DNA from: a virus | Lineage: Duplodnaviria; Caudoviricetes | Direction: 5' to 3' (one strand) | DNA: 64,000 bases | Virus record (IMG/VR): IMGVR_UViG_3300023175_000012 | Location: 32,001-96,000 of that record | Made by a program: the position numbers and the translations under genes | The notes under the pieces: model-generated | What the model was told of the DNA's origin: nothing | The model's input: only the letters and a program-made list of their open reading frames with translations | Database searches by the model: none | Shown here: positions 27,739 to 54,156 of the stretch, piece after piece | Position numbering within the stretch: position 1 is the stretch's first letter | Layout of the letters: every line of letters starts with the position of its first letter

Positions 27739-27749
27739 CAAATAAGAAG

Positions 27750-27773
27750 AAAGCCCGCACAGTGGCGGGCTTT
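27750..27773 (-). terminator. Intrinsic terminator closing the upstream ncRNA
   Basis: AAAGCCCGC-6nt-GCGGGCTTT followed by CTTCTTATTT on minus strand. Confidence 0.8.
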
Positions 27774-27775
27774 AA

Positions 27776-27995
27776 GAATAAGCAAAATAGGTAGGACTCG
27801 GTTACACCTACAAGCCACGGACCAAATACCATTTCATCTCCGCGACAACCTGCTTCCGCTCGGTAGAGCGATGTGACATTGCCTGTTTCCAGTACAACAC
27901 CTGGGTACCACCCCTAAACAGTCAAGTTCGACGCTCTGGTAAACGCCTCTTCCTTGCACTATAAACATTGACTAGCTAAGTCTTTGTTGCTTATG
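27776..27995 (-). ncRNA. Unidentified ~220 nt structured ncRNA
   Basis: Bounded by a sigma70-type promoter and a terminator; ends pair (AUAAGCAA/UUGCUUAU); several internal stems; GC-rich relative to flanks; no credible ORF. Confidence 0.65.
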
Positions 27996-28000
27996 TTATT

Positions 28001-28028
28001 AATATAACATCTTTAAAATAAAAGTCAA
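28001..28028 (-). promoter_or_regulatory. Sigma70-type (early) promoter driving the ncRNA
   Basis: TTGACT-16 nt-TATATT with extended -10 TG; same GTGGTTGAC context as the gp47 promoter. Confidence 0.6.
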
Positions 28029-28110
28029 CCACTTTTTATGAAAAATTAATGATTTTCTGCAAGATTTTTGTCAAAAAGTGTGTTTAAATAATAATTGAAA
28101 GGAGATTGTT

Positions 28111-28182
28111 ATGTGGACAAAACCTAGCTATACAGAAATGCGTTTTGGCTTTGAAGTTACAATGTATGTAATGAACAAGTAA
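28111..28182 (+). CDS. pqqA: Pyrroloquinoline quinone precursor peptide PqqA (23 aa, MWTKPSYTEMRFGFEVTMYVMNK)
   Basis: Hand translation; W-x-K-P leader and G-x-E-V-T-x-Y core with the Glu-x3-Tyr pair; AAGGAG RBS 6 nt upstream; TTAAATA box at 28084-28090; terminator downstream. Confidence 0.92.
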   Translation: MWTKPSYTEMRFGFEVTMYVMNK

Positions 28183-28192
28183 AACCGTAGTC

Positions 28193-28222
28193 AAAAAAAT
28201 AGGGCCCTAAGGCCCTATTTTC
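28193..28222. terminator. Bidirectional intrinsic terminator between pqqA and the major capsid gene
   Basis: AAAATAGGGCC-ctaa-GGCCCTATTTT, with an A-run on the left and a T-run on the right. Confidence 0.85.
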
Positions 28223-28238
28223 TCGTTTTAAGTAAAAC

Positions 28239-38837: not shown

Positions 38838-40609
38838 ACTTTTAATAAAAGTTGTTTTACTTGCGCAGCTACGCCTGCTTTCTTAATTTCATTTGCAAGA
38901 GCCTTTAAGTCGATCATTGGTTGTTGACTTTTAGGCTGTTGTTGTGGAACTGTTTCAGGTTTAAGTTCTACATTTGAAGACTGTCCAATTTGTGCAATTT
39001 GATCATTTGACATTCCTACATCTTGTAGGATATTCATAATAGATCCTGTATCTAAAGGTTCGCCTGCGGCTTTCCATTTTTTAAATAATTTATTTGCTGT
39101 AACTACATTGCCAATGTCTTTGGCTTTTTGTTTTATTGCGCCGCCAACAGCACCTGCAGCTTTGCCGATACCTCTTTTAAATTTTGCACCCATTGTGTTT
39201 GGGTTGTTTAGTGGAAGTTCTCCTTGAGCAGGATCTGCTTCTGCAAGGAATAATGCAAAACGTTCTTCCATGTCAATTGATTCTGCTTTGTCTCCTACAG
39301 GACCAAAGTCACTTAGTTTTTGACTTTTATCAAAGTTTTTATCTACTGGTGTTGCTGTACTACCGCCTTTTAGATCTAATTCTAATTGTTTTTTCTCACT
39401 TGATGGAATTGGTTTTGCTTTTTGAGCATCTGTTACTTTACTATCAACAGCGGTCATAGCACCAGTTACAGCAGCCGCTGCTCCTTCGCCCGATGCTTCA
39501 ATTGTGTTTAAAAGTTTGTCTAAATTGTCACTTGCAGCTGACCATTGCTGTACTTGTTCTGGTGACCATTCTTGTTCTGGAATATTTCCAAGTGCTTCCC
39601 AGAGAGCTGTAAGTTCTTTGTTTTGTTCTTGCACTCCTAGCATAAAGTCATGAAACTTTGCAGCTTCTTGATAATATTCAGGAGTAAAGTTTCCTGCGTC
39701 TTGTAATGAAAGTTGAAAACCTTCAAAATCACTTATTTGTTCTGGAGTTAATACTGTATCATAGTTGTAATAAAAATTGTTTATATTACCACTCATTGTA
39801 AGTTTAGTTGAACCTTCTAGTACATCAGGAGTAAATCCTTTATCTGCAAAGATAGCTTCTTGTGCTGATTCTAAATTTGCTTTATCAAAACTATCAGCCA
39901 TGCCTGCTAACTGTTCGTCACCTGCTGTTGCAATGTTTTCCCAAACAGCATCTTCAATATATCTAAAGGCTGCACCAGCAAGAGCACCATATGCCGCTGT
40001 TTTAAGAGATTTGCCAACAGCACTTGAAAGTTTAGAACCTTGGAGTAAGTCTTTTGTTGAACGTAAAATTAAACCTGCTGCGGCACCGCCTGCAGGTCCT
40101 CCTGCAAAAGCCGCTACTGTTGTTAAAATAGCAACACCTAGTGTTGCTTTACCTGGATTTTCTTTTGCCCAGTTACTAACAGCTTCTATGCCTTTTACAA
40201 TTTTACTGTCGCTATTTTTTGATTTAATATCTGCTTTTAATTTTTCAAATTTTGCATCAGCATTTTGTACAGGTCCTGCATTTTGAACCATTTTGCCAAG
40301 TTGGTTAATTTTTTGATCAACTTTCTTTGCAAGATCAACTGGTAATTTTGCAACGTCTGCAGCTTTGCCAGCAAGTGATCTATTCTTGCCACCTGCCATA
40401 GCAACTTCTTCTGCACTTCTAAAAATATTTTTTACTTGATCCGGAGTAAGTGTTGCTTCACAAACTTTCACATACTGTTCTAGCAAAGGATGTAATTCTT
40501 TTTCCCAACGATTTAATTCAATTTTTTGAGATTCAGTTAAGTCTTGCCAACCTTCTAGCAATATTTTTTGTGTGTTAGGTGCAAATGATTCTACTTCTGT
40601 TAGTTTCAT
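38834..40609 (-). CDS. Hypothetical protein (591 aa), possible head-internal or ejected protein
   Basis: Starts MKLTEV...LLEG; helical, with a hydrophobic Gly/Ala segment; coupled to the upstream gene. Confidence 0.65.
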   Translation of the reverse strand: MKLTEVESFAPNTQKILLEGWQDLTESQKIELNRWEKELHPLLEQYVKVCEATLTPDQVKNIFRSAEEVAMAGGKNRSLAGKAADVAKLPVDLAKKVDQKINQLGKMVQNAGPVQNADAKFEKLKADIKSKNSDSKIVKGIEAVSNWAKENPGKATLGVAILTTVAAFAGGPAGGAAAGLILRSTKDLLQGSKLSSAVGKSLKTAAYGALAGAAFRYIEDAVWENIATAGDEQLAGMADSFDKANLESAQEAIFADKGFTPDVLEGSTKLTMSGNINNFYYNYDTVLTPEQISDFEGFQLSLQDAGNFTPEYYQEAAKFHDFMLGVQEQNKELTALWEALGNIPEQEWSPEQVQQWSAASDNLDKLLNTIEASGEGAAAAVTGAMTAVDSKVTDAQKAKPIPSSEKKQLELDLKGGSTATPVDKNFDKSQKLSDFGPVGDKAESIDMEERFALFLAEADPAQGELPLNNPNTMGAKFKRGIGKAAGAVGGAIKQKAKDIGNVVTANKLFKKWKAAGEPLDTGSIMNILQDVGMSNDQIAQIGQSSNVELKPETVPQQQPKSQQPMIDLKALANEIKKAGVAAQVKQLLLKV

Positions 40610-41373
40610 AATATACTTGCCAATTCTTTTTTCTGTTGCGGATTAAGTGCTTTAATTTTTTTCATTAATTCTGGTGAAATCTTAGGTTGTGCCTGCTTTG
40701 CTTGTTTTGGCATAGGCTTACCAGTTTTATCATCCTTGCCATCTTTATTTGCATCAACAGGTGCAGGCCCTCCAGCCGCTTGCGGCGCACCGCTAGATGC
40801 GGGCGCAGGTTTTTGTACGCCAGCCTTACCAAGCATAGCGTCTTTAGCCGCTTGCATAATAGCGGCATTAATCTGTTGTTTAGTAACTACTCCTGTAGGA
40901 ATATTAGGAACGTTAGCACCTTTAGATTTTAAAAATCCAGCAAGCTCTTCACCAGTTGCTGTTTTTACATCTTTTCCTTGTGTGCCAAGAAACTTTCTAA
41001 ATTCATTATAAAGATTATTTGCGGTATCAGATAAATCAGCTTTACCAGCAAGGTTACCTGCTTTACCTTTCATGCCAATTTTGCTAAGAACTTTAGCACC
41101 AACAGCTTGTCCTGCTTTTTTCATCATTCCAACAGGTGCTTCTTCAATGCTTTCATTTGGAGGATCATAGTCCCACATATAAGAACCAGCACCCATATAA
41201 CTACCACGCTTATAACCTGCTAGTTGCATTGCGTCATCAGAATCAATGCCTTTTTCTTTAGCCCATTGATATATGTAATAAGATCTTTGGCTATCACTAA
41301 TATCAGCAAATTTTGCCACTATTTTTGGATCAGCTTCTTTATCTTCTTTAAAAATTACATCAGTTACTCGCAT
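40606..41373 (-). CDS. Hypothetical protein (255 aa), possible head-internal protein
   Basis: K/A/G-rich; CATAAATA box at about 41399-41406 and AAGGA RBS; contains DANKDGKDD. Confidence 0.65.
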   Translation of the reverse strand: MRVTDVIFKEDKEADPKIVAKFADISDSQRSYYIYQWAKEKGIDSDDAMQLAGYKRGSYMGAGSYMWDYDPPNESIEEAPVGMMKKAGQAVGAKVLSKIGMKGKAGNLAGKADLSDTANNLYNEFRKFLGTQGKDVKTATGEELAGFLKSKGANVPNIPTGVVTKQQINAAIMQAAKDAMLGKAGVQKPAPASSGAPQAAGGPAPVDANKDGKDDKTGKPMPKQAKQAQPKISPELMKKIKALNPQQKKELASIL

Positions 41374-41399
41374 GAAAACATCCTTATTATACTTAATAT

Positions 41400-41908
41400 A
41401 TTTATGTGTTTCGTTTCACGAAACAAGTTTTCGCTATCGCTCAAACTGTTTACTTCGTATTTAATTATGTATGATAGAAGTGAATTATATATGGAACTCA
41501 TTATCACGTAGTGATAATGTTTAAGTTTCATGTAGATTGTTTCAGTCAGACGGAACCTGTTACGGTTCCATCTAATCTCAAGGTGCTTCATGTGAGTCCG
41601 CTCCAGCCGAGACTTGGAAGTAGGTGTTTATCCGCTGTACAATGGGCTCTGACCTTTCCCAACCTACGTCGACATCAAAATATAGCTTATAAGCAATAAT
41701 TTCTAAATTATAGCTAATACACTATATTTTTACCCGTTGCTTCGTTCCTAGTGCATACGGTTTTTATGTACAATGTGCGGTGTTTCGATTGCCAACAATC
41801 AACCTACGCCAATCAAACGCTCTACTACCGAACGCCGCTCAACGTGTTACGTGTGCTCCTATACGGATGCTTTTTCCACAGCGGTATTTCTAAACTGGCC
41901 CGCTAACC
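41400..41908 (-). ncRNA. Large structured noncoding element downstream of the GIY-YIG nuclease (putative ncRNA; origin-like element not excluded)
   Basis: About 500 bp without a credible ORF in a gene-dense genome; at least 8 hairpins identified by eye. Confidence 0.55.
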
Positions 41909-42358
41909 TTAGGTGTTGGATTGTTTTGCCTTAATGGTGTGTTCTAGCAAAGCCTTGCGCAATTTATCGGAACCGCCAACTCTAACATTAATAATTCCAT
42001 TGTAATACTCGTCGCTCTCTAATACACGGCGGTCAAATTGCTCTCTTGCCTCAATGTAGGACATTTCGCCCCTGCCTCTGCATAGGTATAATATTTCTCT
42101 TGTAAAGTTTTTTTCGCCTAGTGCTTTAACGTCTGCATTTAATCTATCAGAACTACCCCAATAGGTTTTCCAGTCGCTTTCTTTATAGCCTCTACGTTTA
42201 TTCTTTTTGCCTTTAAGAGGTGGCTTTGTAGTTTTAAACTTTGCTAGTTTTTTGCCTATATATTTTTGCCCTGTTTTTTTATTCGTTATTAGATATACGA
42301 AGCCTTCAAATTCTTCTGGTATGGTTTCAATTTTTTTGCCTTTATAAGTCCACTCCAT
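41909..42358 (-). CDS. GIY-YIG family endonuclease (149 aa)
   Basis: GFVYLITNKKTGQKYIGKK (GIY-YIG variant), YWGSS, F-x-R-E-I-L, conserved Glu in YIEARE, and YYN. Confidence 0.8.
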   Translation of the reverse strand: MEWTYKGKKIETIPEEFEGFVYLITNKKTGQKYIGKKLAKFKTTKPPLKGKKNKRRGYKESDWKTYWGSSDRLNADVKALGEKNFTREILYLCRGRGEMSYIEAREQFDRRVLESDEYYNGIINVRVGGSDKLRKALLEHTIKAKQSNT

Positions 42359-42377: not shown

Positions 42378-42587
42378 TTAATCGTCGCTAGGTTCGTTTT
42401 GACTTTTTTCCTTGTTTAAGTGTTTTTCGTGTATTTCATCCATGCGTAATTTTGCAAGTGTACGTATGTTACGTAATGCACGTCTTGCACTTCCGTGTGT
42501 TCGCACAGAATTACGAGATTCAAATTTTTCGTTCTCTTCAAAATATTCTAAATATGCTTTTACAAGTTTATCGTGAGTATCATCCAT
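42378..42587 (-). CDS. Hypothetical protein (69 aa)
   Basis: Start overlaps the gp46 stop; basic helix ARRALRNIRTLAKLR. Confidence 0.7.
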   Translation of the reverse strand: MDDTHDKLVKAYLEYFEENEKFESRNSVRTHGSARRALRNIRTLAKLRMDEIHEKHLNKEKSQNEPSDD

Positions 42588-44359
42588 TATTCAACTACAT
42601 CAATATCGTTTTCGTAACTGGTAAATCCATTTTCTTTTACAACTTTAAGAACGTTGTTAACTCTGCCAATAAGTTCATCTTTATGACTGATTAAGTAGAT
42701 ATTTTTTTCTCTTTCTCTGCCCATTTTCTTAAGTACAGCAAGACTGTTTTCAACACCGTTGGAATCCATACCGCTGTCTATAAGTTCGTCAATGAATAGT
42801 AAGTTAACATTTTGATATAAACTTTCCCAAACGTCACGGAAGGCAAAACTTAGTCCTAGTATAAGTCTATTACGTTCACCACGTGATAGATTATCAAAGT
42901 CTAAGTCTTGACCTAACTGTGTAATTTCAACAGAAAGGTCATTTAAGAATGTTACGGTGTGCGGCAAACCTAGTTTATCTAGATAGTATGTTAATCTATT
43001 GTTTAGATATGCTAGATTTTGATCGATAATTTTTTTACGTATAAAACTGTCTTTGTTTGTTAGAAGTTTTAACAAGAATTCTTGGTGCTCTTTTGTAGAT
43101 GTTATATCGTTAACTGTTGACCAATCAATATCTTGTTTTGCACTAGCTTCAAGATCGTCAATCTGTTCCTGATACGGGTCAACTTCATCTTTTCTGTTTT
43201 CGTAAGCATTTTTTAAAGTGTCTACATTGTTTCTATGATCATATGCTTCTTTAGACGTTTCGTAGTACGTGTTCGGACGTCCGTTGATATCACCTATATC
43301 GCCGAGCTCTTTTTCAACACTGTTTAGTTTGTCTGTAATTTCTGTAAGATATGCGTCTGCATCAACTAATTCTTTAGATTTTTTATCTAAAATTTCTGCT
43401 TTTTTGTCTGCATGTAAAGACTGTCCGCATGTATAACAAGTAGCACTATCTAGTTCTAAGATGTCTTTTTCGACTTTTTTAACAGACTTACTGGCACGTA
43501 ACTGTGCTGTCTCGAGTGTGCTTTTTTCTTTATTAAGAGCCAAAATAGCATTGTTTAGCTCAGTCCAGTTTGCTAGTTTTTCGTGCGATTCGAGTTCTGC
43601 ATCAATATCAAGGTGTTCAAGTTCTTCGATAGATTCCTTTAGCTTTACAACATCTGTAGTGCGTTTTGAAAGCCATGCTTTTTGCTTGCTTTTAAGACCT
43701 TCTATAGTTTCGTCAATTTTAGAATTAGCAGATTGTATTGCATCAATACGCATAGTTTCTTGCGTAAGTTCGTCTTTAGATTTTCGTACTTCTTCTTTTA
43801 AAAGATCTGCTTTTTCAGAAAGTATAGTTATTCCGAGTAACTGTTCTATAATAGCACGTTGATCGTTTGTTCGCATGCTTAAGAACGGTTCTGTATAAGT
43901 GTTAAGTGCTACAACATGTTTGAACATGTCGTGACTCATACCTAATAAAGAATCAATCGATTCCTGTGTTTTACGACTATCACCTTGAGATTCGTCTATG
44001 TCAACTTGCTCTTCGTTGTTGACATAGAACTTTAAAACATTTGGCGATCTACCTCTCTCAATTCGGTACTGAACACTGTCTTTTTCAAAAGCAAGTGTAA
44101 CTAACATTCCTTTAGAATTAGTCTTGTTAATTAAATTGTTTTTTCTTATGTTCGTAAGAGCGTTGCCGTAAAGAGCATAACTTAACGCATTAATTATAGT
44201 TGTTTTACCAGTACCATTACGGGAGCCAGAATCGTCACCTCCTTGATCTAAGTTTTCGCCTAGTACTAGTGTGAGTTGTTGTTTATCAAAGTCAACCGCT
44301 TGTGTTTGGTTGCCAACACTCATAAAATTTTTAACGGTTAGGTCCTTAATTTTAATCAT
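42587..44359 (-). CDS. gp46: Recombination endonuclease ATPase subunit (gp46/SbcC/Rad50-like)
   Basis: KNFMSVGN, Walker A NGTGKTT, CYTC zinc hook, LSRGE signature, LLFIDELID and ISHK. Confidence 0.93.
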   Translation of the reverse strand: MIKIKDLTVKNFMSVGNQTQAVDFDKQQLTLVLGENLDQGGDDSGSRNGTGKTTIINALSYALYGNALTNIRKNNLINKTNSKGMLVTLAFEKDSVQYRIERGRSPNVLKFYVNNEEQVDIDESQGDSRKTQESIDSLLGMSHDMFKHVVALNTYTEPFLSMRTNDQRAIIEQLLGITILSEKADLLKEEVRKSKDELTQETMRIDAIQSANSKIDETIEGLKSKQKAWLSKRTTDVVKLKESIEELEHLDIDAELESHEKLANWTELNNAILALNKEKSTLETAQLRASKSVKKVEKDILELDSATCYTCGQSLHADKKAEILDKKSKELVDADAYLTEITDKLNSVEKELGDIGDINGRPNTYYETSKEAYDHRNNVDTLKNAYENRKDEVDPYQEQIDDLEASAKQDIDWSTVNDITSTKEHQEFLLKLLTNKDSFIRKKIIDQNLAYLNNRLTYYLDKLGLPHTVTFLNDLSVEITQLGQDLDFDNLSRGERNRLILGLSFAFRDVWESLYQNVNLLFIDELIDSGMDSNGVENSLAVLKKMGREREKNIYLISHKDELIGRVNNVLKVVKENGFTSYENDIDVVE

Positions 44360-45374
44360 GCGTTAATCCGTTGTATATCTCCAAAAGTTTTTTCTTATCA
44401 AATGAGTCTGTGTCTAGTTCAGATATCTCACTTGCAACGATTTGATCAACACTAACAAATGAACTAATGTCTAAGTCTGTGCTAATTTCTTCAATATGTG
44501 ATTTAGGTATAAGTGTAATTTCTCTACAGTTATACTGATTGATAAATGTTTCTTTTATAAAACTTGCTTCTTCATAACTGATATCAATGTCAAGTTCTAC
44601 TCGCAGGTACATTTTGCTTTTTATAAGTGTGTCTTGTTCGTCGATTAGTTTAGAAAGTTTAACAGTTCTATACTTAGGACAATCCGGCCAATTGATGTAC
44701 TCTGGTTCTTTGTTGTTTTCTTTGTCAAGAATCATCATACCACGTTCGTCATCCCATGCATCTGCATAGTTGTGAGGGAAAGCATTACCGATATAATGTA
44801 TTTTGCCTTGATTTTGACGCTTATGAAAATGTCCACTAAAGACATAGTCTTGATTAGCAAAGTGTTCTTTGTTTAAGTCACCACCGTGATCAGGCATTTT
44901 AACCATAGCATTCATGTAAAAACTTGGAAGTTCAAAATGTCCAAACATGTATTTTGCCTTACATTTTTGTATTTTTTTCCATTCGTCTGCTACAAGCCAT
45001 GGGACAATAGCAACATCGTCTTCTACAGTTAATTCATCGATAAATGTAATTCCTGGTATGTGTTTTGCAAACGCTGTAGAGTTTACATCTCTTTTATCTT
45101 TGTAGTACAAATCATGGTTGCCATCGAAGAATATAAACTTGTCAAATGCTTTACCAAGTTTTTCCATACTTCTAATAGTAGCATCCATGGTCGTGAGGTT
45201 AAGACTGTTTCGATTGTGATGCCAATCTCCACAGAAAATACCAGTTTCACATCCGTTTTCTTTTGCTGTTTTGATATACCAATCTATAAATTCTTCGCAA
45301 TCGTCATTGTGAACGCGACTGTTACTTTTTAGACCAAAGTGTATATCAGTAAACACAGCGGCTTTTTTAAACAA
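44352..45374 (-). CDS. gp47: Recombination endonuclease nuclease subunit (gp47/SbcD/Mre11-like)
   Basis: DIHFG, GDWHH, GNHD, GHFE and SGHFH metallophosphoesterase motifs; TTG start with GGAGG RBS. Confidence 0.93.
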   Translation of the reverse strand: MFKKAAVFTDIHFGLKSNSRVHNDDCEEFIDWYIKTAKENGCETGIFCGDWHHNRNSLNLTTMDATIRSMEKLGKAFDKFIFFDGNHDLYYKDKRDVNSTAFAKHIPGITFIDELTVEDDVAIVPWLVADEWKKIQKCKAKYMFGHFELPSFYMNAMVKMPDHGGDLNKEHFANQDYVFSGHFHKRQNQGKIHYIGNAFPHNYADAWDDERGMMILDKENNKEPEYINWPDCPKYRTVKLSKLIDEQDTLIKSKMYLRVELDIDISYEEASFIKETFINQYNCREITLIPKSHIEEISTDLDISSFVSVDQIVASEISELDTDSFDKKKLLEIYNGLTHD

Positions 45375-45402: not shown

Positions 45403-45431
45403 ATAATATAACAAAAGTTAATCTTTGTCAA
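45403..45431 (-). promoter_or_regulatory. Sigma70-type promoter for gp47-gp46
   Basis: TTGACA-17 nt-TATTAT. Confidence 0.7.
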
Positions 45432-46278
45432 CCACTTTTCTTTCTTGGAAAATTGAAGTTTTTAGTTCTTCATTTCTTTTTACAGCGGCTTCCCATTCAC
45501 CTTGTGCTTGTCGTGTGTATGATGGGTTTAAGTCGTTCATCTCTAAAATATCGTCTCTAATATTTTGATTACGTTTTTCTATATTAATGACACGAACAAA
45601 TGAATTAGTAACAGCAGCGGTATAGTAAGCAAAAGGATTATTACTTTTAGATTCATCGAACTGTAGTCCTATCTGTGCTAGTTGTAGTATTGCTTGCCCC
45701 TTCATTTCGTCGTTGTAAGTATAACCTCTAACGTTACCTCTAGTTGCATACCTATCAACTAATTTTAACCACATAGTTGCTAGTTTGTTAGTTGCTTTAC
45801 CGTGTTTATGATCAAAATGTCCGTTTTCCATGCCGCCTTGCCAATGACTTTTGCCTACACACACTAGTTCATCATTTTCGTTAAATTTATAGTGTTGAAA
45901 TGGAGGAAAATTTAATTTTACCTTGTGATCTGCTATAGTTTTAGGATTTTTCTTTCTTCCAGGTTCATCTGGAATATGATCAAATGTCATAATACGGAAG
46001 ATTAGTTCTTCTTTTGTAATCTTTTTCCAGTCAACTTCGCAATCTGCTTGTTTTACCTTTTCACCGGCCATTTTGCGGGTTTCGTAGTCTGCATTGCTTA
46101 GACGCTTTGCTTTGTTTCTTTTTGCTTCTGCAATAGTTAATCTGTTTACCTTTTCTATATCTGTAAGAATAATATCGTACTGATGGTATTCTGGGTCTAT
46201 ATAGCTATTAAACGTATTCTTTGATTTGTGGATTTCTGATAAGATATCCTTGTTGTTTAAATAATTTCTAGATCGCAC
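45418..46278 (-). CDS. gp55: Late-transcription sigma factor (T4 gp55-like); probable GTG start at 46278
   Basis: NYLNNKD N-terminus, NVRGYTYNDEM and FDESKSNNPFAYYT motifs; adjacent to gp47/46 as in T4-like phages; GGAG lies upstream of GTG 46278 rather than TTG 46290. Confidence 0.82.
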   Translation of the reverse strand: MRSRNYLNNKDILSEIHKSKNTFNSYIDPEYHQYDIILTDIEKVNRLTIAEAKRNKAKRLSNADYETRKMAGEKVKQADCEVDWKKITKEELIFRIMTFDHIPDEPGRKKNPKTIADHKVKLNFPPFQHYKFNENDELVCVGKSHWQGGMENGHFDHKHGKATNKLATMWLKLVDRYATRGNVRGYTYNDEMKGQAILQLAQIGLQFDESKSNNPFAYYTAAVTNSFVRVINIEKRNQNIRDDILEMNDLNPSYTRQAQGEWEAAVKRNEELKTSIFQERKVVDKD

Positions 46279-46303
46279 ATGTTTCTCCAAGTTTAATAGT
46301 CAT

Positions 46304-47551: not shown

Positions 47552-50500
47552 ATGATTAATCCTAGTGCAATTATTTCAAACAAAGCTCAGACATTAGCAA
47601 GTAGTCTAGGCGAAGCTGTTGAAAGCGTCGATACCGCAGCGTTAACTGAACAATTTGATTTAGTTTCACGCAATGTGTTTGATGCATCGTCTAAGATTAA
47701 CATACAACTTCCAGATAGCATTGGTCTTGACACAGCTGGGTTACAAAATAGAATAGCAAGTCTTGGAAACAGCATACCGTCTTTGGCAAATATTGACGAT
47801 CCTAGTGCTATTTTTCCTCCTAGTTTAAATCAGTTTGCAAACGGCTTTGGCAATTCATTAGCAAGCAAAGCACAGAATTTAGTAGATCAAGTAGTTCCGT
47901 TAACAGGAAGTTTAGCAAATGGAATAGACTCGGCTGTTGCAGATCTAGAAAGTCAAATCAATAGTCTAACACTACAGTCTGTAGAACAAGAAGTTGAACA
48001 ATTTGTAGAAAAATTTACAGAGTCTGCTAGAGGAAGTCTAAGTGCTCCAGAAAGAGAGCCTTCTGCACCAGGTGTTACAATAAAAAATCCGCTAAGACAA
48101 TTTCAAAGTTACAACTGTATTTTTAGTTTAGGTGTATTAACAGCAGACAGTGCAAATAATCCATCAGAGACGTATATTAAGCGTGGTGCAGATTTTACTA
48201 TACTAAGATCCGGTGGCGGCGGTATAGATAATAAACGTATACAAACTTATTATGATTCTATAGGAGAGGAAGCAGGTAACTTAGAATATTTTATAGATGA
48301 TTTTGAAATGACATCTATAATATCTCCTAATAACAGAACAGGTACTTCACAGGCTATTAATTTTAGTTTTAGTGTAAAAGAGCCATACTCTATGGGGTTA
48401 TTTTTACAATCTTTACAAAGTGCGGCTTTTGATGCAGGATTTCAAAACTATTTACAAGCACCGTATTTGTTAGAATTAGATTTTGTAGGCTGGGACGACG
48501 ACGGCGGCAAACCAGTATCGTACAGTAATAGAAAATTGCCTTTTAAACTAACAACTGTTGAATTTGATGTAGAGTCGGGCGGTAGTACATATCAAGTAAA
48601 TTGCATTCCATGGAATGAACAAACATTTCAAGATGATGTAATGACACTTCAAGATACTGTTAGTATTACAGGAAATGATCTTGTAGAATGTTTGTCTACA
48701 GGAGAGCAAGGACTGTCTACAATTATAAATGACAAATTAAAACAAATTGCCGAAGACACTTGTTCACCGGCTTCAGATTATTATTTGATTAGATTTCCAA
48801 CTACAAGAGCAGGAGATATTGGAAATATAAGTCCAACAGCAACAGAAAACAGAGCTACTATTAGTGATGCTGAAGCATTATCTTCTAGACGAGGAGAGCA
48901 AGCTGCCGAAGTTGAAGAAGACGGCCTTACAACATTTTTTAGAAATATTGGTATAGATACAAGCAGCAATTCTTTGCTACAGTCACTTAAAGGAGATAGT
49001 ATAACTAATCTTAATGCTATTGGTGCTAGTTCTATGATATCAGAATTTACCGCAGGCGGAGATAGTCCTTTTGGCTTAGGATTATATACATATGACGAGG
49101 AAGCTAATGTCTACAAACGTAACGGTGTAGAAATGACAATTAGCGATACTAACAGAACGTTTAAATTTACACAAGGAACACCAATTACTAAAGTCATAGA
49201 AGAAATGGTGCTTGTTAGTGAATACGGTAGATCTGCATTACAACGAGTAGACAACAAGGGCGAAATAGATTGGTTTAAAATTGAAGCTAAATGTTATGTA
49301 GTACCAGATTCAGCACACGAGACAGAAACAGGTGAATCACCAAAAATATATGTATTTGATGTAGTACCTTACAAAGTTGATGCAAGTAGATTTAGTGCTC
49401 CTAGCCAAGCAAATTCTGGATTGATACAAAAAGCAAGGCATTGTGTAAAAACATACAATTACATTTACAGCGGACAAAATGAAGATGTGTTAGGATTTGA
49501 AATAAAATTTAATGCAGCATTCTTCCAAGCAATACGCATGGATATGGGCCAATTACAAGCATCTGATGTTGTTAATGATAGAGAAAGTATTACTGTTACT
49601 CCAAGAGATCCTGCACTAGGTAGACCTACACCAGGACAAACTGTGCCTGAAGGTAGAACAAGGAGTGTAATGAGGGCCGGTAATTTTAATGGCGGTAGTT
49701 ACAATAAACAATACGGCGAAGCTGTTGCTAAGATGTTTCATAATGCATTGTTGAATAGTAAAGCAGATCTTATAACAGCAGAATTAGAAATTTGGGGTGA
49801 TCCGTATTTTATACCTGATAGCGGAGTAGGTAACTGGACAGCACCGAGAGGAGGCTCAAAAAATATTACAGCAACCGGCTCTATAGATCATCAAAGAAAT
49901 GAAATAGATGTTATTATAAACTTTAGAACTCCTATAGACTATAACAATAATGGTACTATGTTTTTTCCAGGACAAACTATTGCTGTAGATAGTTTTAGCG
50001 GAGTATACCAGGTCATAACTGTTAATAGTAGAATAAGTGGAAATAAGTTTACTCAAACCCTTGAATTGGTAAGAAGACGAAATCAAAGTACAGAAGGTAT
50101 AAGTAACGATCAAGCTCTTGTAGAGTTACCTGCATGCGAGGGTGTTAATACAGCAGACGGCGAACCAACTGAAGAAGTAGGTACTGATCCGCAAGAAAAT
50201 ACAACGGTAAGAGACAGCGAAATTGTTCCACCAAGTGGTTCAAACGGAGCCCTTGCAACTATAAGATCTTCTACAGGTAAAACAACACAGGTTGCGGCAA
50301 TCTATGCAGAAAATTTTCAAGGACTTATTGACGAACTAGAAAATGACTACGGATACGAAATTAGATCACTCGGCGGTTATGTTCAAAGAAACGCTAGAGG
50401 AAGTACAAGTCCTAGTTACCATGCAAGTGGCTTGGCCATTGATATAAACGCTACACAAAACCCTATGATTAGACCTAGACCTGAAGATGCTCCTGAACCA

Positions 50501-51196
50501 TACACAGATATGCCAGAAGGCGGCACAGGGTCGCAAATGAAAGCACTTGCTGAAAAATACGGATTAGGTTGGGGAGGAGACTGGCGAAGCTCGATTGATG
50601 CGATGCATTTTAGTGCGGCAAAACGAGAAGGCGGTCAATTAGATTGGCCTAGAAATGGTTTAATACCAGGCACACCGGAAAGTGGTCAACGTGTACCGGA
50701 AGATGCTCCAGAGACAGCACCTTCTGAGCCAGAACAAAGACAACCTCAACCATCATCTGAAACAGTAAGAAGAAGACCTGCATCAGGACAAAATGCACAA
50801 GAAACTTGGGATCGTAGATATGCCGCAACTCATAACCCAGATGGAACTCCTAAAGCAAGTTTTGTAGCAGCATCTGGTTCTAGAGTTAGCGGAGTAAATT
50901 CGGTTGCTAACGATTTTGCATTAAGAGAGCAACAATTCCAATCAGGACAATTTGGTGAATCCACATTGCGTCCTTATTTCCCTACAGATGCACTAGATAA
51001 CTTATATGATGTAAAAGCAGGAAATAAAATTAGAGCTATAGCAAATTTTTATACTAATCAGGGTGTAGAAGTAAGTACACCTGTTACAACTACTAGTAGT
51101 GGTGTAACGTATAATGAATTCGGCGACGAAGTAGCTGTAAGTAGTAGCACACCTGTTTCAACATATGATGAATTTGGTGACGAAATTGAAATCTAG
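47552..51196 (+). CDS. Baseplate hub protein with M15-family peptidase domain (1214 aa)
   Basis: Hub-like LEIWGDPYF and FSGVYQVITVNSRISGNKFTQTLELVR; peptidase motifs SYHASGLAIDIN and GWGGDW...DAMHF. Confidence 0.72.
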   Translation: MINPSAIISNKAQTLASSLGEAVESVDTAALTEQFDLVSRNVFDASSKINIQLPDSIGLDTAGLQNRIASLGNSIPSLANIDDPSAIFPPSLNQFANGFGNSLASKAQNLVDQVVPLTGSLANGIDSAVADLESQINSLTLQSVEQEVEQFVEKFTESARGSLSAPEREPSAPGVTIKNPLRQFQSYNCIFSLGVLTADSANNPSETYIKRGADFTILRSGGGGIDNKRIQTYYDSIGEEAGNLEYFIDDFEMTSIISPNNRTGTSQAINFSFSVKEPYSMGLFLQSLQSAAFDAGFQNYLQAPYLLELDFVGWDDDGGKPVSYSNRKLPFKLTTVEFDVESGGSTYQVNCIPWNEQTFQDDVMTLQDTVSITGNDLVECLSTGEQGLSTIINDKLKQIAEDTCSPASDYYLIRFPTTRAGDIGNISPTATENRATISDAEALSSRRGEQAAEVEEDGLTTFFRNIGIDTSSNSLLQSLKGDSITNLNAIGASSMISEFTAGGDSPFGLGLYTYDEEANVYKRNGVEMTISDTNRTFKFTQGTPITKVIEEMVLVSEYGRSALQRVDNKGEIDWFKIEAKCYVVPDSAHETETGESPKIYVFDVVPYKVDASRFSAPSQANSGLIQKARHCVKTYNYIYSGQNEDVLGFEIKFNAAFFQAIRMDMGQLQASDVVNDRESITVTPRDPALGRPTPGQTVPEGRTRSVMRAGNFNGGSYNKQYGEAVAKMFHNALLNSKADLITAELEIWGDPYFIPDSGVGNWTAPRGGSKNITATGSIDHQRNEIDVIINFRTPIDYNNNGTMFFPGQTIAVDSFSGVYQVITVNSRISGNKFTQTLELVRRRNQSTEGISNDQALVELPACEGVNTADGEPTEEVGTDPQENTTVRDSEIVPPSGSNGALATIRSSTGKTTQVAAIYAENFQGLIDELENDYGYEIRSLGGYVQRNARGSTSPSYHASGLAIDINATQNPMIRPRPEDAPEPYTDMPEGGTGSQMKALAEKYGLGWGGDWRSSIDAMHFSAAKREGGQLDWPRNGLIPGTPESGQRVPEDAPETAPSEPEQRQPQPSSETVRRRPASGQNAQETWDRRYAATHNPDGTPKASFVAASGSRVSGVNSVANDFALREQQFQSGQFGESTLRPYFPTDALDNLYDVKAGNKIRAIANFYTNQGVEVSTPVTTTSSGVTYNEFGDEVAVSSSTPVSTYDEFGDEIEI

Positions 51197-51206
51197 AGGT
51201 TAAAAA

Positions 51207-53639
51207 TTGCCACAAAGTAGACGTACAAATTATAGAAACTTAGATGATATAGGAACTGGTCCTTACGAGGCTATAGTTGTAAGTAACCTTGACCCTACCT
51301 ATATGGGTAGTCTTAAAGTAGATGTTTTGAAAAATAATACTTCGGGTAGTTTACCTGAAAAAATTGGAACGTCTATTGAGGTTAGGTATCTGTCTCCGTT
51401 TTACGGAGTAACATCATTAGATACAGCAACGGCAAATGACGGTTATGCAAGTACTCAAAAAAGTTATGGTATGTGGTTTGTTCCTCCTGATATTGGATCA
51501 CGTGTTCTAGTTATTTTTGCAGAAGGTGATATATCAAACGGATTTTGGATAGGATGTGTTCAAGATAAGTTTATGAATTTCATGGTTCCTGATGGAAGAG
51601 CATCAACTGAAATAACTACCGCAGCAACACCCGACAATCTACAAGGATTAAAATTACCTGTAGGCGAATATAATAAAAAAGTTGAACGAGGCTCTGGCAG
51701 AGACCCAACAAGATATCCTAAACCATATAATAAAGATTTTTCACAAACTTTAGAAATACAAGGTTTAATTAGAGATGAAAACAGAGGAACAACAACTTCT
51801 AGTGCTAGAAGAGAAGCTCCGAGTTCTGTTTTTGGTATTAGCACCCCAGGACCAATTGACAAGCGTTCAGGCGCACCAAGAGGATTACAAGGTGAAGCAG
51901 GACTAAAATACTCGGCATTTGTTAATCGCTTAGGCGGCTCTAGTTTTGTTATGGACGACGGTGATGACAAATTACTAAGAGTATCTCATGCATCAGCAGG
52001 ACCTCCTATATATGCAAACGTAGAAGGCGGTGAATTATTTGGGGATAAAACTATACCCCATAATGAGGTAATGAGATTTAGAACTCGAACCGGTCATCAG
52101 ATATTAATGCATAATGCAGAAGACTTTATCTATATTGCTAACAGTAGGGGAACAGCATGGGTTGAATTAACTAGTGATGGTAAAATTGATGTTTACGGAT
52201 TAGACAGTATTTCTATTCATAGTGACTCGGATATAAATTTAACAGCAGATAGAGATGTTAATATTGAAGGCGGCAGAAATGTTAATGTAAGAGCAAGTGC
52301 TAGGTATACTGGCTTTCAAAGTAACGGAGGTAGCGGTAACGTACAAATTGAAAGTAAGTTTGATACAAAAATGCTTTCAGAACAAAATATGCTTGTAAAT
52401 GTAAAAGGATATCAAGAAACTAAAGTTACTGGATATCAAAAAACACTTGTAGAAGGAGATATACATCATCACACAAATGCAAATTTATATGTGTTAGCAG
52501 ATGCCCAAGGTCATGTCCGCACAGTAGAAGATTTACACGTTAACACAGATGAAACTTTACACCTAGTTGGTAAAGTAGGAAAATTAACAGCAACAGATGG
52601 TTTAATAGATTTAAATGCATCAGCAGATGTTAACGTAGATGGTGCAAATGTATATCTTAATAGTGATATAGCAACAAACGGAACAGCGGCAACTGACGCA
52701 GAAGATGCTGTAGATTTTATCTATCTTAAAAATTGGACAGTTCCAAAAACATCACCCGGAACAGACATATCCTCAGATATTTCTACTTTCGTAAAAAGAA
52801 TGCCGACACACGAGCCATATTATCAACATGAAAATTTAGATCCAATAATGGTAAAAAGCGAAAGAACAGATATTACTAATCCTGTTGTTCTTAGTGTTGC
52901 ACAATATAGAAGTTCAGCAGATACGTTTAGAAAGAGTTTTTCTGGAGGATCAGGAGCAACAGCAGCAGGAGCCGCAGGAGACGGAACACGTGGCGGCACT
53001 AATCCAAACTTAGATCCTAACACTAGTGGAGTTAATCCAGTTACAGAACAAGGAGGATCCGGCGGAGATACTCTAACACCACCACAATCATTCTCAACAG
53101 TTGGCCCAGACGGTAATTTATTAGATATGATTAGTAGAGCAGAAGGCGCAGGTTACAATACTGTATTTGGCGGAAGCAGGATTACTCCTGAAACACTTTA
53201 TGGAAAAAGTCTAACACAGCTTACTATACAAGAAGTTATCGACTGGCAGACAGCATCAGTAGATGCAGGCTCTGCGAGCTCTGCTGCAGGTAGGTATCAA
53301 ATTATTAAAAGAACCTTAGTCTACCTAGTAGATCAGTTAGGTGTTGCATCTAGAACAGATAAATTTGATCCTACTACACAAGATGCTATGGCTAGACGAT
53401 TGCTACAAGGCAGAGGACTTGACAGATACGTTGCAGGATCTCTTTCAGAGTCAGCATTTTTAAAAGCTATTGCACAAGAATGGGCAAGTTTACCAGTTAC
53501 ACAAAGAACACAAGGTGCATCACGTATTGTAAATCCTGGAGAAAGTTATTATGCAGGTGATGGATTAAACAGGTCATTAATAAGCACTACAGAGTTAGTT
53601 GCAGCGGTCAGAAATGCACGAGAATCAGGACTTGCATAG
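51207..53639 (+). CDS. Central spike (gp5/VgrG-like) with C-terminal lambda-type lysozyme
   Basis: OB-fold DPTYMGSLKV...YGMWFVPPDIGSRVLVIF; RTRTGHQI beta-helix; ISRAEG, AAGRYQI, TQD and EWASLP muramidase motifs. Confidence 0.8.
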   Translation: MPQSRRTNYRNLDDIGTGPYEAIVVSNLDPTYMGSLKVDVLKNNTSGSLPEKIGTSIEVRYLSPFYGVTSLDTATANDGYASTQKSYGMWFVPPDIGSRVLVIFAEGDISNGFWIGCVQDKFMNFMVPDGRASTEITTAATPDNLQGLKLPVGEYNKKVERGSGRDPTRYPKPYNKDFSQTLEIQGLIRDENRGTTTSSARREAPSSVFGISTPGPIDKRSGAPRGLQGEAGLKYSAFVNRLGGSSFVMDDGDDKLLRVSHASAGPPIYANVEGGELFGDKTIPHNEVMRFRTRTGHQILMHNAEDFIYIANSRGTAWVELTSDGKIDVYGLDSISIHSDSDINLTADRDVNIEGGRNVNVRASARYTGFQSNGGSGNVQIESKFDTKMLSEQNMLVNVKGYQETKVTGYQKTLVEGDIHHHTNANLYVLADAQGHVRTVEDLHVNTDETLHLVGKVGKLTATDGLIDLNASADVNVDGANVYLNSDIATNGTAATDAEDAVDFIYLKNWTVPKTSPGTDISSDISTFVKRMPTHEPYYQHENLDPIMVKSERTDITNPVVLSVAQYRSSADTFRKSFSGGSGATAAGAAGDGTRGGTNPNLDPNTSGVNPVTEQGGSGGDTLTPPQSFSTVGPDGNLLDMISRAEGAGYNTVFGGSRITPETLYGKSLTQLTIQEVIDWQTASVDAGSASSAAGRYQIIKRTLVYLVDQLGVASRTDKFDPTTQDAMARRLLQGRGLDRYVAGSLSESAFLKAIAQEWASLPVTQRTQGASRIVNPGESYYAGDGLNRSLISTTELVAAVRNARESGLA

Positions 53640-53654
53640 GGGGTAAATATAGAT

Positions 53655-54101
53655 ATGAGCACGTTAGAAAAAAATATTTACAAAAGAGTAAATGTATCAA
53701 GTCAAAAAGTACAAAAGAAACCTGCAAGTAGTGCGGCTTATAGGTCCATTAGCACAGTAAACCCTGCTAATGATGGTTTTAGATTATACGATCTTGCGGT
53801 TATTAAGCAAGACGTAATAAATCATTTTCATATACGTCAAGGCGAAAAACTAGAAAATCCTGAATTCGGTACAATAATATGGGATGTTCTTTTTGATCCT
53901 CTTACAGAAGCATTAAAATCTGCTATTGTAGAAAATGTTGAACAGATCATAAACTATGATCCTAGAGTTCTAGTAGACAATGTAGTAGTTGATACTTATG
54001 AAAGTGGAATACAAATTGAGTGTACATTAATATACTTGAACTACAGTATAGCTGAATCTATGAGACTACAGTTTGATAGAGAAGCAGGGCTTCTTGCGTA
54101 A
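53655..54101 (+). CDS. gp25: Baseplate wedge subunit (gp25-like)
   Basis: IRQGEKLENPEFGTIIWDVLFDPL and YDPRV; TAAATA box just upstream. Confidence 0.85.
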   Translation: MSTLEKNIYKRVNVSSQKVQKKPASSAAYRSISTVNPANDGFRLYDLAVIKQDVINHFHIRQGEKLENPEFGTIIWDVLFDPLTEALKSAIVENVEQIINYDPRVLVDNVVVDTYESGIQIECTLIYLNYSIAESMRLQFDREAGLLA

Positions 54102-54156
54102 AGAATTAAACACGTACTTAACACATTATAATAAATACGTTATACGAGGAAAATAG

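What the first reader, a model, noticed from the sequence alone, without database searches (positions are those of the whole stretch)
41400..42358. GIY-YIG nuclease followed immediately by a ~500 nt hairpin-dense noncoding element: candidate nuclease-RNA system
Seen: the longest intergenic stretch in the window starts right at the nuclease stop codon and is full of stems (plus-strand coordinates): AGCGG/CCGCT 41880-41904, GATTG/CAATC 41787-41800, a long AT-rich arm AAAATATAG/CTATATTTT 41677-41730, GTAGGT/ACCTAC 41620-41667 enclosing TGGG/CCCA, AGACGGAACC/GGTTCCATCT 41548-41573, CATTATCAC/GTGATAATG 41499-41519 and GTTTCGT/ACGAAAC 41408-41424. The C/A mismatch in the 41548-41573 stem becomes a G-U pair on the minus strand, favouring an RNA co-oriented with the nuclease. 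The nuclease is a minimal catalytic domain with a basic loop (KFKTTKPPLKGKKNKRR) and no evident C-terminal DNA-binding domain. Established: some compact nucleases (IscB/HEARO, TnpB) use an adjacent structured RNA. Inference: a nuclease-RNA pair, a large phage ncRNA, or a replication/packaging origin next to the gp46/47 genes.
Basis: partly seen in the sequence, partly recalled or inferred. Interest (0 to 1): 0.8.

Follow-up and report, generated by a model that had tools for sequence, protein, structure and literature searches.

The report
Twin-box phage RNA behind GIY-YIG nuclease
The gene-free stretch behind a small DNA-cutting enzyme gene of this uncultured marine T4-like phage encodes a real, knotted non-coding RNA of about 500 bases that shows one 7-letter word twice; it is not a programmable guide of the known kind, and its job is still unknown.

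Summary
Window 41404-41908 (minus strand) encodes a structured RNA of about 505 nt that starts at the base after the stop codon of a 149-aa GIY-YIG nuclease. On 43 distinct relatives, 92.9% of cells pair, against about 35% in slid controls. 36 of 92 pairs carry compensatory changes, including a long-range pseudoknot. G-U pairs fix the strand. The core is 89-92% identical where the nuclease's third codon positions are 66%.

Rfam finds nothing here. In relatives with other twin words, the first third is the orphan motif Polynucleobacter-1 (RF01718): 15 of 20 loci.

The RNA carries the word ACAUGAA twice. Across the family I saw 14 words, nearly always as identical pairs.

Every testable RNA locus had the nuclease upstream: 106 of 106, 61 of 61 and 74 of 74. 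The nuclease family often lacks the RNA.

I found no guide-like end segment and no target match.

This scan has found the same "twin-box" family before on other DNA.

Best reading: a conserved RNA gene at the gp47-gp46 locus that reads one outside partner twice. Function is unknown.

The parts
41909..42358 (-). 149-aa single-domain GIY-YIG nuclease gene; the stop TAA (41909-41911) abuts the RNA
   Evidence: Pfam PF19835 SegE_GIY-YIG, E 6.5e-35, residues 3-123. PHROG 447, full length. AF2 pLDDT 96.9. VIA Z 8.2, rmsd 2.6, 82 aligned to the I-TevI catalytic domain 1LN0_A. Y22, Y33, G35, E103 and N120 are invariant in 66 sequences.
41404..41908 (-). Twin-box RNA, about 505 nt (RNA position p = 41909 - window coordinate)
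   Evidence: Conserved in 43 further distinct relatives, beyond the level of the flanking coding DNA. 92 pairs in 17 helices, 92.9% paired against 35-44% when slid, 36 pairs compensatory, 0 of 500 shuffles. The strand is set by G-U pairs.
41731..41908 (-). 5' domain: P0 5' strand, H1, H2a/b, H3, H4, PK 5' strands (41768-41780), H5
   Evidence: Compensatory changes in H2b (5 of 5 pairs), H3 (5 of 9) and H5 (3 of 4). Model R2, built from it, finds only class I relatives. RF01718 does not score it.
41677..41730 (-). AT-rich variable hairpin (expansion segment)
   Evidence: Mean pairwise identity 0.38. Length in relatives runs from a few nt to more than 100 nt.
41525..41676 (-). Core: helices A, B, C, D, the PK 3' strands (41632-41640) and both boxes
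   Evidence: 41641-41660 is identical in all 44 nuclease-anchored sequences. PK pairs: UA:22/CG:18, GC:25/AU:15, UA:31/CG:12. Model R1 scores 193.6 bits, and there is one copy in the 115.8-kb record.
41586..41596 (-). Box 1, CUCACAUGAAG
41526..41536 (-). Box 2, UCUACAUGAAA; its first half is the 3' strand of helix A
41499..41519 (-). P6 hairpin
   Evidence: 8 of 9 pairs compensatory.
41427..41446 (-). K hairpin, GUUUGAGCG-AUA-GCGAAAAC, shared by all classes seen
   Evidence: 3 of 6 pairs compensatory. Present in class II and in L325.
41407..41425 (-). T hairpin, the last conserved structure of the RNA
   Evidence: 6 of 8 pairs compensatory, although only 58% of cells pair in this alignment.
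41399..41406 (-). CATAAATA, a T4-type late-promoter-like box for the next gene. It marks the 3' limit of the RNA and is not part of it.
   Evidence: TAAATA lies behind the T hairpin in 77 of 88 loci. The consensus TATAAATA is recalled, not tested.

Best explanation
Shown:
- This is one member (a marine 'class I') of a large family of 400-520-nt pseudoknotted RNAs.
- The family sits on the coding strand directly behind a small I-TevI-like GIY-YIG nuclease gene, at the end of the gp47-gp46 (Mre11/Rad50-like) gene block of uncultured aquatic T4-like phages.
- The next gene has a late-promoter-like box of its own.

Inferred:
- The RNA is made by read-through from the nuclease gene, because I found no promoter of its own.
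- It folds into a compact, knotted body. That body holds two single-stranded copies of one 7-nt word about 60 nt apart, each directly 3' of CUC or UCU.
- Fourteen different words occur, almost always as identical pairs, while the neighbouring protein hardly changes. The words are therefore most simply read by base pairing with one outside nucleic acid, twice.
Nucleases of that kind settle beside invariant RNA genes.
- What the RNA does after binding is unknown.
For: Structure and selection:
- 92.9% of cells pair against about 35% when slid, and 36 of 92 pairs are compensatory.
- The pseudoknot appears in mutual information.
- The RNA core is 0.89-0.92 identical, against 0.656 at nuclease third codon positions.

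Twin words:
- In 92 distinct class I RNAs, 20 carry one of 6 concerted variants and 3 are discordant.
- 13 words were counted and one more. In one search, 82 of 87 new loci had identical pairs.

The protein does not track the RNA:
- Class II loci have a nuclease 83-88% identical to the window's over residues 1-140/141.

Fixed locus:
- gp46 lies upstream in 131 of 138 class I loci and in 46 of 47 testable other-class loci, 45 of them GAAUAAU.

The nuclease occurs elsewhere without the RNA:
- Melnitz and a single-cell genome lack it.
- In 40 of 80 P0122-anchored loci an ORF follows at once and no twin box is found.
- One homologue lies beside 7 tRNA genes.

Other points:
- The downstream gene has its own late-promoter-like box in 77 of 88 loci.
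- Relatives of both the nuclease gene and the RNA stand in contigs of 4 RNA libraries from 4 studies. This shows presence only.
Against: - The RNA was never found without the nuclease gene upstream: 106 of 106, 61 of 61 and 74 of 74 testable loci. An independent RNA gene beside a selfish nuclease should sometimes be nuclease-free. All my RNA patterns came from nuclease-linked examples, so this may be sampling.
- No partner for the words was found. Their complement is at chance frequency in the 115.8-kb record, which CheckV rates as 31% complete.
- No internal complement covaries.
- Transcription, ends and abundance are not shown. The runs were assembled contigs, and DNA carry-over cannot be excluded.
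Confidence: 0.4

Rival explanations
1. A functional nuclease-RNA module. The RNA is a cofactor, regulator or substrate-former for the GIY-YIG enzyme. For example, it could tether the enzyme, which has no DNA-binding domain, to two copies of a 7-nt site. Or it could form an R-loop whose displaced strand the enzyme cuts, as single-domain GIY-YIG Ssn enzymes cut single-stranded DNA motifs that flank their own genes.
For: - RNA-to-nuclease adjacency holds in 241 of 241 testable loci across three pattern searches.
- The RNA starts at the base after the stop codon in 67 of 92 distinct sequences.
- The enzyme is a bare catalytic domain.
- A conserved scaffold with a short variable word is what a specificity RNA would look like.
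- Ssn precedent: PMC11893778, passages read.
Against: - The nuclease is nearly unchanged between loci with words ACAUGAA and GAAUAAU and with unrelated 5' and core sequence.
- Most of the nuclease family has no RNA.
- Genes can lie between nuclease and RNA: L221, and 4 loci at 1100-1382 nt.
- Adjacency is no tighter than that to gp46, so it may be plain synteny.
- A 7-nt word is too short for a unique target.
- There is no enrichment of the word or its complement in the record.
- In the passages read, SsnA does not bind RNA.
Confidence: 0.25
2. A cis-acting primer or R-loop RNA of a replication origin, in the manner of ColE1 RNA II or T4 oriF/oriG (both recalled). Box 1 in the RNA would pair with the template strand at box 2. 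That pairing requires the two words to be identical whatever they are.
For: - It explains the identity of the words without any outside gene (inference).
- The locus lies in the replication-recombination block, between early-type genes and a late promoter.
- There is one copy per record.
Against: - About 500 nt of pseudoknotted structure, with invariant single-stranded stretches, is far more than known phage R-loop origins need (recalled).
- No AT-rich unwinding element is conserved: the AT-rich hairpin is the least conserved part, at 0.38 identity.
- GC skew shows no turn at the locus, and skew here follows gene direction.
- Nothing ties the site to DNA ends. Contig ends inside the RNA fit assembly breaks at variant junctions.
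Confidence: 0.15
3. A cis-regulatory untranslated region. It would be either a 3' UTR that stabilises or gates the nuclease/gp46 transcript, or a leader for the downstream gene. Rfam's source paper rated Polynucleobacter-1 as probably cis-regulatory.
For: - It abuts the upstream stop codon, and no promoter of its own was found.
- In the table of PMC2864571, the Polynucleobacter-1 row reads 'y y ?'. My reading of those columns (RNA / cis-regulatory / switch) is recalled; the passage shown does not give the headers.
Against: - The downstream gene has its own late-promoter-like box behind the RNA in 77 of 88 loci.
- The downstream genes differ between loci: an orf255-like gene in 52 of 120.
- The size, pseudoknot and twin words exceed those of known UTR elements.
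Confidence: 0.1

Closest known systems
Polynucleobacter-1 RNA motif (Rfam RF01718; Weinberg et al. 2010, PMC2864571, one table row read)
   Same: In relatives with twin words GGAUAAU, AGAUAAU or GAAUAAU, RF01718 scores 54-116 bits (gathering score 37). It lies directly behind the nuclease homologue and 150-290 nt upstream of box 1, so it is the first third of the same kind of RNA: 15 of 20 loci, and L325 at 79.3 bits. By eye, the window's 5' end (GGUUAGCGG-GCCAG...CCGCU) resembles the model's first hairpin. The type-B form of H3 seen in relatives, an outer stem around two hairpins, resembles the model's 3' multi-stem.
   Different: - RF01718 does not score the window at E<=10.
- It does not score 12 class I loci at E<=5.
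- It does not score 16 further class I loci at the gathering score.
- It does not score class II locus L260.
- My 5' model R2 does not hit RF01718-positive loci.
- The catalogued motif is 141 positions. It has no core, no twin boxes and no stated link to a nuclease.
GOLLD (RF01998) and ROOL (RF03087) large ornate RNAs (accessions as given in the scan's notes; biology recalled; abstract of bioRxiv 10.1101/2024.12.08.627333 seen in the listing)
   Same: Several hundred nucleotides long, multi-domain, pseudoknotted, phage-borne, of unknown function, and found by comparative genomics.
   Different: No sequence or model similarity: the Rfam scans are blank. The twin words and the fixed place behind a nuclease gene are not features of those families.
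IscB/HEARO and TnpB omega/reRNA guide RNAs
   Same: A compact nuclease gene with an adjacent conserved structured RNA on the same strand.
   Different: There is no 16-20-nt guide at either end, no transposon ends, and a different nuclease fold (GIY-YIG). Most relatives of the nuclease have no RNA. The variable part is a 7-nt word present twice inside the fold.
Free-standing GIY-YIG homing endonucleases of T4-like phages (Seg family; I-TevI catalytic domain)
   Same: Pfam SegE_GIY-YIG. The best structural match is the I-TevI catalytic domain (Z 8.2). Family members sit at different conserved loci: behind nrdB-like genes in Melnitz, beside tRNA genes in L362, and behind gp46 here.
   Different: It is only 149 aa with no DNA-binding domain, which holds for the whole PHROG 447 family (148-position profile). 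It is under long-term purifying selection (codon-position identities 0.88/0.93/0.66) at one fixed locus. No nuclease-free allele of the RNA was seen. Homing is not shown.

Membership tests
GIY-YIG nuclease superfamily (SegE_GIY-YIG, PF19835) | Profile match above the curated cut-off | tested here: met
   120.5 bits against a cut-off of 25, E 6.5e-35, profile positions 1-123 of 123.
GIY-YIG nuclease superfamily (SegE_GIY-YIG, PF19835) | GIY and YIG tyrosines, catalytic Glu and Asn conserved (residue roles recalled) | tested here: met
   Y22, Y33, G35, E103 and N120 are invariant in 66 aligned family members. The Arg is a majority residue only.
GIY-YIG nuclease superfamily (SegE_GIY-YIG, PF19835) | GIY-YIG fold | tested here: met
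   The top four structural matches are all GIY-YIG enzymes: I-TevI Z 8.2, PD-T4-3 Z 7.0, UvrC N-terminal domain Z 5.6, T4 EndoII Z 5.4.
Homing endonuclease (Seg type) | C-terminal DNA-binding domain and presence/absence polymorphism at the site | tested here: not met
   149 aa, one domain. 77 of 80 gp46-anchored relatives carry it, and 2 of the other 3 contigs are too short to tell.
Polynucleobacter-1 (RF01718) | Covariance-model score at or above the gathering score of 37 bits | tested here: not met
   No match at E<=10 in the window or in its whole record. It is met in relatives of other twin-word classes.
Polynucleobacter-1 (RF01718) | Same place and architecture as RF01718-bearing RNAs: behind the nuclease, followed by core, twin boxes and K and T hairpins | tested here: met
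   L325 and 15 of 20 loci show nuclease - RF01718 - twin boxes on one strand. R1 gives weak hits exactly over the twin-box region of L464 (E 0.045), L489 (E 0.062) and L320 (E 0.079).
Twin-box RNA family (this scan's working name) | CUC-N7 ... 35-80 nt ... UCU-N7 with identical N7, flanking a hairpin | tested here: met
   ACAUGAA twice, 50 nt apart, around helix D. About 2 chance hits are expected in all the sequence held (my estimate), and 3 to 4 odd words were seen.
IscB/TnpB-type guide RNA | Variable guide of 16 nt or more at an RNA end that matches a target | tested here: not met
   Both ends are conserved structure. There is no match of 16 nt or more elsewhere in the record, and 12-mers number 17 against 13.5 +/- 5.6 in shuffles.
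Group I intron | Rfam model match and flanking exons of one gene | tested here: not met
   No Intron_gpI match at E<=10. The flanks are separate genes with their own start signals. The pseudoknot topology differs from P3/P7 (my reading).
tmRNA / tRNA | ARAGORN or Rfam detection | tested here: not met
   0 genes in the window. No Rfam match.

The most novel reading that the evidence does not exclude
The RNA is a twin-headed specificity RNA. Its scaffold presents the same freely evolving 7-nt word twice, so that it bridges two copies of one site on DNA or RNA. Those could be two homologous phage chromosomes, or the RNA and its own template. The bridging would serve the adjacent domain-less GIY-YIG nuclease and the gp46/gp47 recombination machinery. 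This would be a bridge-RNA-like principle in a lytic phage, and the first RNA-directed GIY-YIG enzyme.
Probability: 0.12. Interest if true: 0.95.

Novelty: new variant of a known kind. Interest (0 to 1): 0.72.

Why it matters
The nuclease's clusters at 90% identity or more number above 8000 in public metagenomes. The RNA behind it is more conserved than the protein. This is therefore one of the commoner large non-coding RNAs of aquatic phages, yet only the first third of some relatives is catalogued, as an orphan motif from 2010.

Two features are, as far as my searches reach, undescribed. One is a word that may be almost anything but must be the same twice. The other is an RNA never seen apart from a bare GIY-YIG domain.

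If the words are read by base pairing, the family offers a natural, compact two-site recognition RNA. If not, it is still a new large ornate RNA with a clear handle for experiments: mutate one box, or both.

No deposited phage genome carries it at blastn sensitivity. That explains why it has gone unstudied.

Tried and rejected
Rejected readings of the stretch:
- Decayed coding sequence or lost C-terminal domain. There are stops in all three minus-strand frames. The conservation pattern is of RNA type. The whole PHROG 447 family is about 148 aa.
- The 75-aa ORF at 41364-41591(-), which starts at the AUG of box 1. It is not conserved, because indels occur between the boxes.
- Group I intron, RNase P, tmRNA or a riboswitch. 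I noticed by-eye likenesses (GGGAAAGGUCAG...) to recalled P4/J4-5 and CR-I motifs. Rfam gave nothing and the topology does not fit.
- Boxes pairing with each other through the palindrome CAUG. The words CAUA-type (ACAUAAU, ACAUAAA) break that pairing.
- Boxes as mimics of the nuclease's own start site. The window has CUACAUGGA there, but start contexts do not track the word in about 260 loci.
- Boxes as initiator-codon mimics. Positions 3-5 are AUG, GUG or AUA in most words, but ACAGGAA occurs.
- An internal complement of the word. None covaries.

Searches that came back blank, which are no evidence of absence:
- Rfam at E<=5 on 12 class I loci and at the gathering score on 16 more.
- RF01718 on class II locus L260.
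- R2 on RF01718-positive loci.
- PDB by sequence: only one weak, unrelated hit.
- Foldseek against PDB: nothing at E<=0.001.

Expression: laid contigs give no cover at 41337-41521 at 85% likeness. That part is the variable 3' region, so it says nothing.

Earlier notes: they say the RNA also occurs without the nuclease, in small phages, and beside DNA-joining enzymes. I did not see this. The one twin match without a nuclease (L455) lies inside an ORF and is chance. The 5 non-identical matches also lacked the nuclease.

Literature: I found no paper on this RNA. Searches were made, all listings. I read passages of PMC10690425, one table row of PMC2864571, and passages of PMC11893778. PMC10690425 lists thousands of short phage RNA candidates in supplements that I could not open, and pieces of this RNA may be among them.
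Full report
**What is there**

The window is part of a 115.8-kb IMG/VR virus record that CheckV rates as 31% complete. Around the finding, all genes run on the minus strand:
- A late sigma factor, gp55-like, at 45418-46290 (PHROG 12791, E 7e-79).
- A gp47-like phosphoesterase at 44352-45374.
- A gp46/Rad50-like ATPase at 42587-44359.
- A 69-codon ORF at 42378-42587.
- The 149-aa GIY-YIG gene at 41909-42358.
- 535 nt without an open frame.
- A 255-codon ORF of no known family, from 41373.

ARAGORN finds no tRNA or tmRNA in the window. Rfam finds nothing credible at E<=10, either in 4 kb around the site or in the 551 nt alone.

The stretch folds better than dinucleotide shuffles on both strands, with z -4.1 and -5.8. 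Far stronger evidence comes from relatives.

Eighty IMG/VR loci anchored on the nuclease (85-93% protein identity) align without a break from gp47/gp46 through the nuclease and on to about window 41400-41450. They then diverge. Among the 44 distinct sequences with enough downstream DNA, 20-nt blocks of the 'non-coding' stretch are 80-100% identical. 41641-41660 is invariant. Two AT-rich segments are hypervariable in sequence and length.

In 67 sequences with an intact 149-codon ORF, nuclease codon positions 1/2/3 are 0.88/0.93/0.66 identical. The RNA core is 0.92 and 0.89 identical. The core figures are inflated somewhat, because part of this set was chosen by a 21-28-nt core word. The nuclease-anchored set shows the same conservation without that bias.

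**Structure and strand**

RNAalifold on the 44 sequences gives 64 pairs, 18 of them with double changes. A mutual-information scan of 92 distinct RNAs adds a long-range pseudoknot. RNA positions 129-132 and 138-141 pair with 274-277 and 269-272, which lie inside the loop of helix C.

My 92-pair, 17-helix model was counted on the independent alignment A1 (43 distinct rows):
- 92.9% of cells pair, against 86.1 +/- 0.3 in column shuffles and 35-44% when partners are slid.
- 36 pairs carry double changes, against 23.9 +/- 2.2.
- The covariation score is 0.242 against 0.125. For each of these three measures, 0 of 500 shuffles reach the observed value.
- 'Further pair types' does not exceed the shuffles (73 against 76.1).
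- Helices A, B, C and D of the core hardly vary, so they rest on energy and conservation only.

Pairs that are G-U in 25-43 of 43 sequences would be A-C on the other strand. Examples are columns 12/36, 76/128, 77/127, 81/123, 341/490, 350/482 and 452/475. The RNA therefore runs with the nuclease gene.

The RNA starts at the base after the stop codon. It ends with a hairpin (41407-41425) just before a CATAAATA box, an AAGGA and the next ATG. A TAAATA box lies there in 77 of 88 loci, so the next gene probably has its own late promoter. No sigma-70-like promoter precedes the RNA, so read-through from the nuclease gene is the simplest source. That is an inference.

**Twin boxes**

CUCACAUGAAG (41586-41596) and UCUACAUGAAA (41526-41536) share the 7-mer ACAUGAA. 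In 92 distinct class I RNAs, 69 have ACAUGAA twice. Twenty have one of six other words twice: ACAUAAU 9, ACGUGAA 5, ACAUGAU 3, and GUAUGAA, ACAUGAG and ACAUAAA once each. Three are discordant.

A class-blind scan of all sequence held, for CUC-N7, then 35-80 nt, then UCU plus the same N7, found 218 loci. Many of these are the same contigs fetched twice. They carried 13 plausible words and 3 odd ones, about what chance predicts.

A wider IMG/VR scan added 87 loci. Eighty-two have identical pairs: GGAUAAU 54, AGAUAAU 19, GAAUGAU 4, AGAUGAU 4, GGAUGAU 1.

The first half of box 2 is the 3' strand of helix A. In L106, the change from CUAC to CUGU keeps that helix through two G-U pairs, and box 1 changes in the same way.

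I found no internal partner for the words. They do not track the nuclease start site, and they are not enriched in the record.

**Linkage**

Going from the RNA to the nuclease:
- A 28-nt core word found 117 new loci. All 106 with any room upstream have the nuclease gene 190-576 nt before the word. The other 11 have 273 nt or less upstream.
- The class II pattern found 69 loci. Sixty-one of 61 testable have the nuclease 259-329 nt upstream.
- In the wider pattern, 74 of 75 identical-pair loci with 900 nt or more upstream have it. The exception lies inside an ORF and is chance.

Going from the nuclease to the RNA:
- Close relatives all have an RNA.
- Melnitz (67% identity, gene behind an RNR small-subunit gene) and a single-cell genome (67%) have none.
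- Of 80 loci anchored on a 60%-identical family member, 17 have twin boxes and 2 more have a core hit. In 40, another ORF follows within 25 nt and there is no twin box in the DNA held.
- One homologue lies beside seven tRNA genes.

The module sits behind gp46 in 131 of 138 class I loci and in 46 of 47 testable other-class loci, 45 of them GAAUAAU. The adjacency may therefore reflect old synteny as much as function.

**A second class in the same slot**

Six gp46-anchored relatives carry a different RNA of about 500 nt behind a nuclease that is 83-88% identical to the window's over residues 1-140/141. Their word is GAAUAAU. Their 3' domain (P6, K and T hairpins and the late box) is close to that of some class I loci. 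Their 5' half and core share only short motifs with class I: GUAGG...AGGUCA, UGACU, GGCUG...GACUC and CAAUCU. The likeness of architecture is judged by eye. R1 gives only weak hits, but exactly in place: L320 at E 0.079, L464 at 0.045 and L489 at 0.062.

**Link to a catalogued motif**

Earlier notes of this scan call the family 'twin-box RNA'. They say its first third is Polynucleobacter-1 in freshwater relatives.

I could not get RF01718 to score in four tests:
- the window or its whole record at E<=10;
- 12 class I loci at E<=5;
- 16 further class I loci at the gathering score;
- class II locus L260.

It does score 79.3 bits directly behind a nuclease homologue in L325, followed by twin boxes, K and T hairpins and CATAAATA. 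It also scores 54-116 bits in 15 of 20 loci with other words. The claim therefore holds for the family. This window's 5' domain is either a diverged or a replaced version.

**The nuclease**

- It matches PF19835 and PHROG 447 over its full length.
- There are 2246 representative clusters at 50% identity, mostly 135-150 aa.
- The AF2 model has pLDDT 96.9.
- The best structural matches are I-TevI's catalytic domain (Z 8.2, rmsd 2.6, 82 residues), PD-T4-3, the UvrC N-terminal domain and T4 EndoII.
- Foldseek alone found the I-TevI domain only weakly, at E 0.19.
- The catalytic tyrosines, Glu and Asn are invariant.

That is true of the whole family, with or without the RNA.

**Expression**

Twenty-one of the 24 listed runs are on record as RNA libraries, and all hold 9-25% of the sampled words. 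Contigs of four of them, from four studies, cover relatives of both gene and RNA between 41527 and 42369. One 2793-nt contig spans both. Contigs show presence only. DNA carry-over is possible, and neither strand, ends nor level can be read from them.

**Reading**

The element is a conserved RNA gene of an uncatalogued class within an extended Polynucleobacter-1 family. The IscB/TnpB analogy fails on every testable point except adjacency.

The twin words are the key unexplained feature. Many words occur, always the same twice, beside an almost constant protein. This argues for base-pair reading by one partner.

I rank the readings as follows:
- An RNA gene with a nuclease neighbour: 0.40.
- A true nuclease-RNA module: 0.25.
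- An R-loop/primer origin, in which box 1 RNA pairs with the box 2 template: 0.15.
- A UTR element: 0.10.

The remainder is left open.

Noticed in passing
L260, L266, L271, L273, L274, L279 (behind the nuclease); L365-L433: The same slot holds a second RNA class with twin word GAAUAAU. Its 3' domain is close to that of some class I loci and the nuclease is nearly unchanged. It looks like a swapped cassette of the 5' half plus core, with the nuclease's last ~9 codons swapped along with it.
   Followed up: partly
L362:2295-3343: A homologue of the nuclease lies beside seven tRNA genes. From memory, this resembles SegB in the T4 tRNA cluster.
   Followed up: no
L002-L081, ends of contigs: 22 of 80 nuclease-anchored contigs end 30-280 nt behind the nuclease stop. 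Nine of them end at RNA positions 123-146, where three alternative pseudoknot strands occur. Many gp46-anchored contigs end there too. The likely cause is assembly breaks where an invariant island meets variant cassettes.
   Followed up: partly
L215:4270-6100: In one gp46 relative, a hemE-like ORF (my reading of its N-terminus) and a second ORF follow gp46 in place of the nuclease-RNA module.
   Followed up: no
L221:3958-4400: About 120 extra codons are inserted between nuclease residue 140 and the RNA start. The old C-terminal codons and stop are still visible in front of the RNA.
   Followed up: no
window 41364-41591 (-): A 75-codon ORF starts at the AUG of box 1, and the AUG of box 2 is in frame. 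It is not conserved in relatives.
   Followed up: yes
window 27637-28238: By ORFs of 100 aa or more, this 602-nt gap is longer than the one studied. Other notes of the scan place a pqqA-like mini-ORF and a ~220-nt RNA candidate there.
   Followed up: no
window 25-25214 and 47552-63998: Six ORFs of 1155 to over 2300 codons fill much of the window. Together with the 31% completeness, this points to a genome of several hundred kb.
   Followed up: no
window 40606-41373 (-) and homologous positions in loci: The gene behind the RNA keeps a similar N-terminus (M-K/N/R-V/I-x-D-I/V) but otherwise diverges fast. tblastn recognises it in only 52 of 120 loci.
   Followed up: partly
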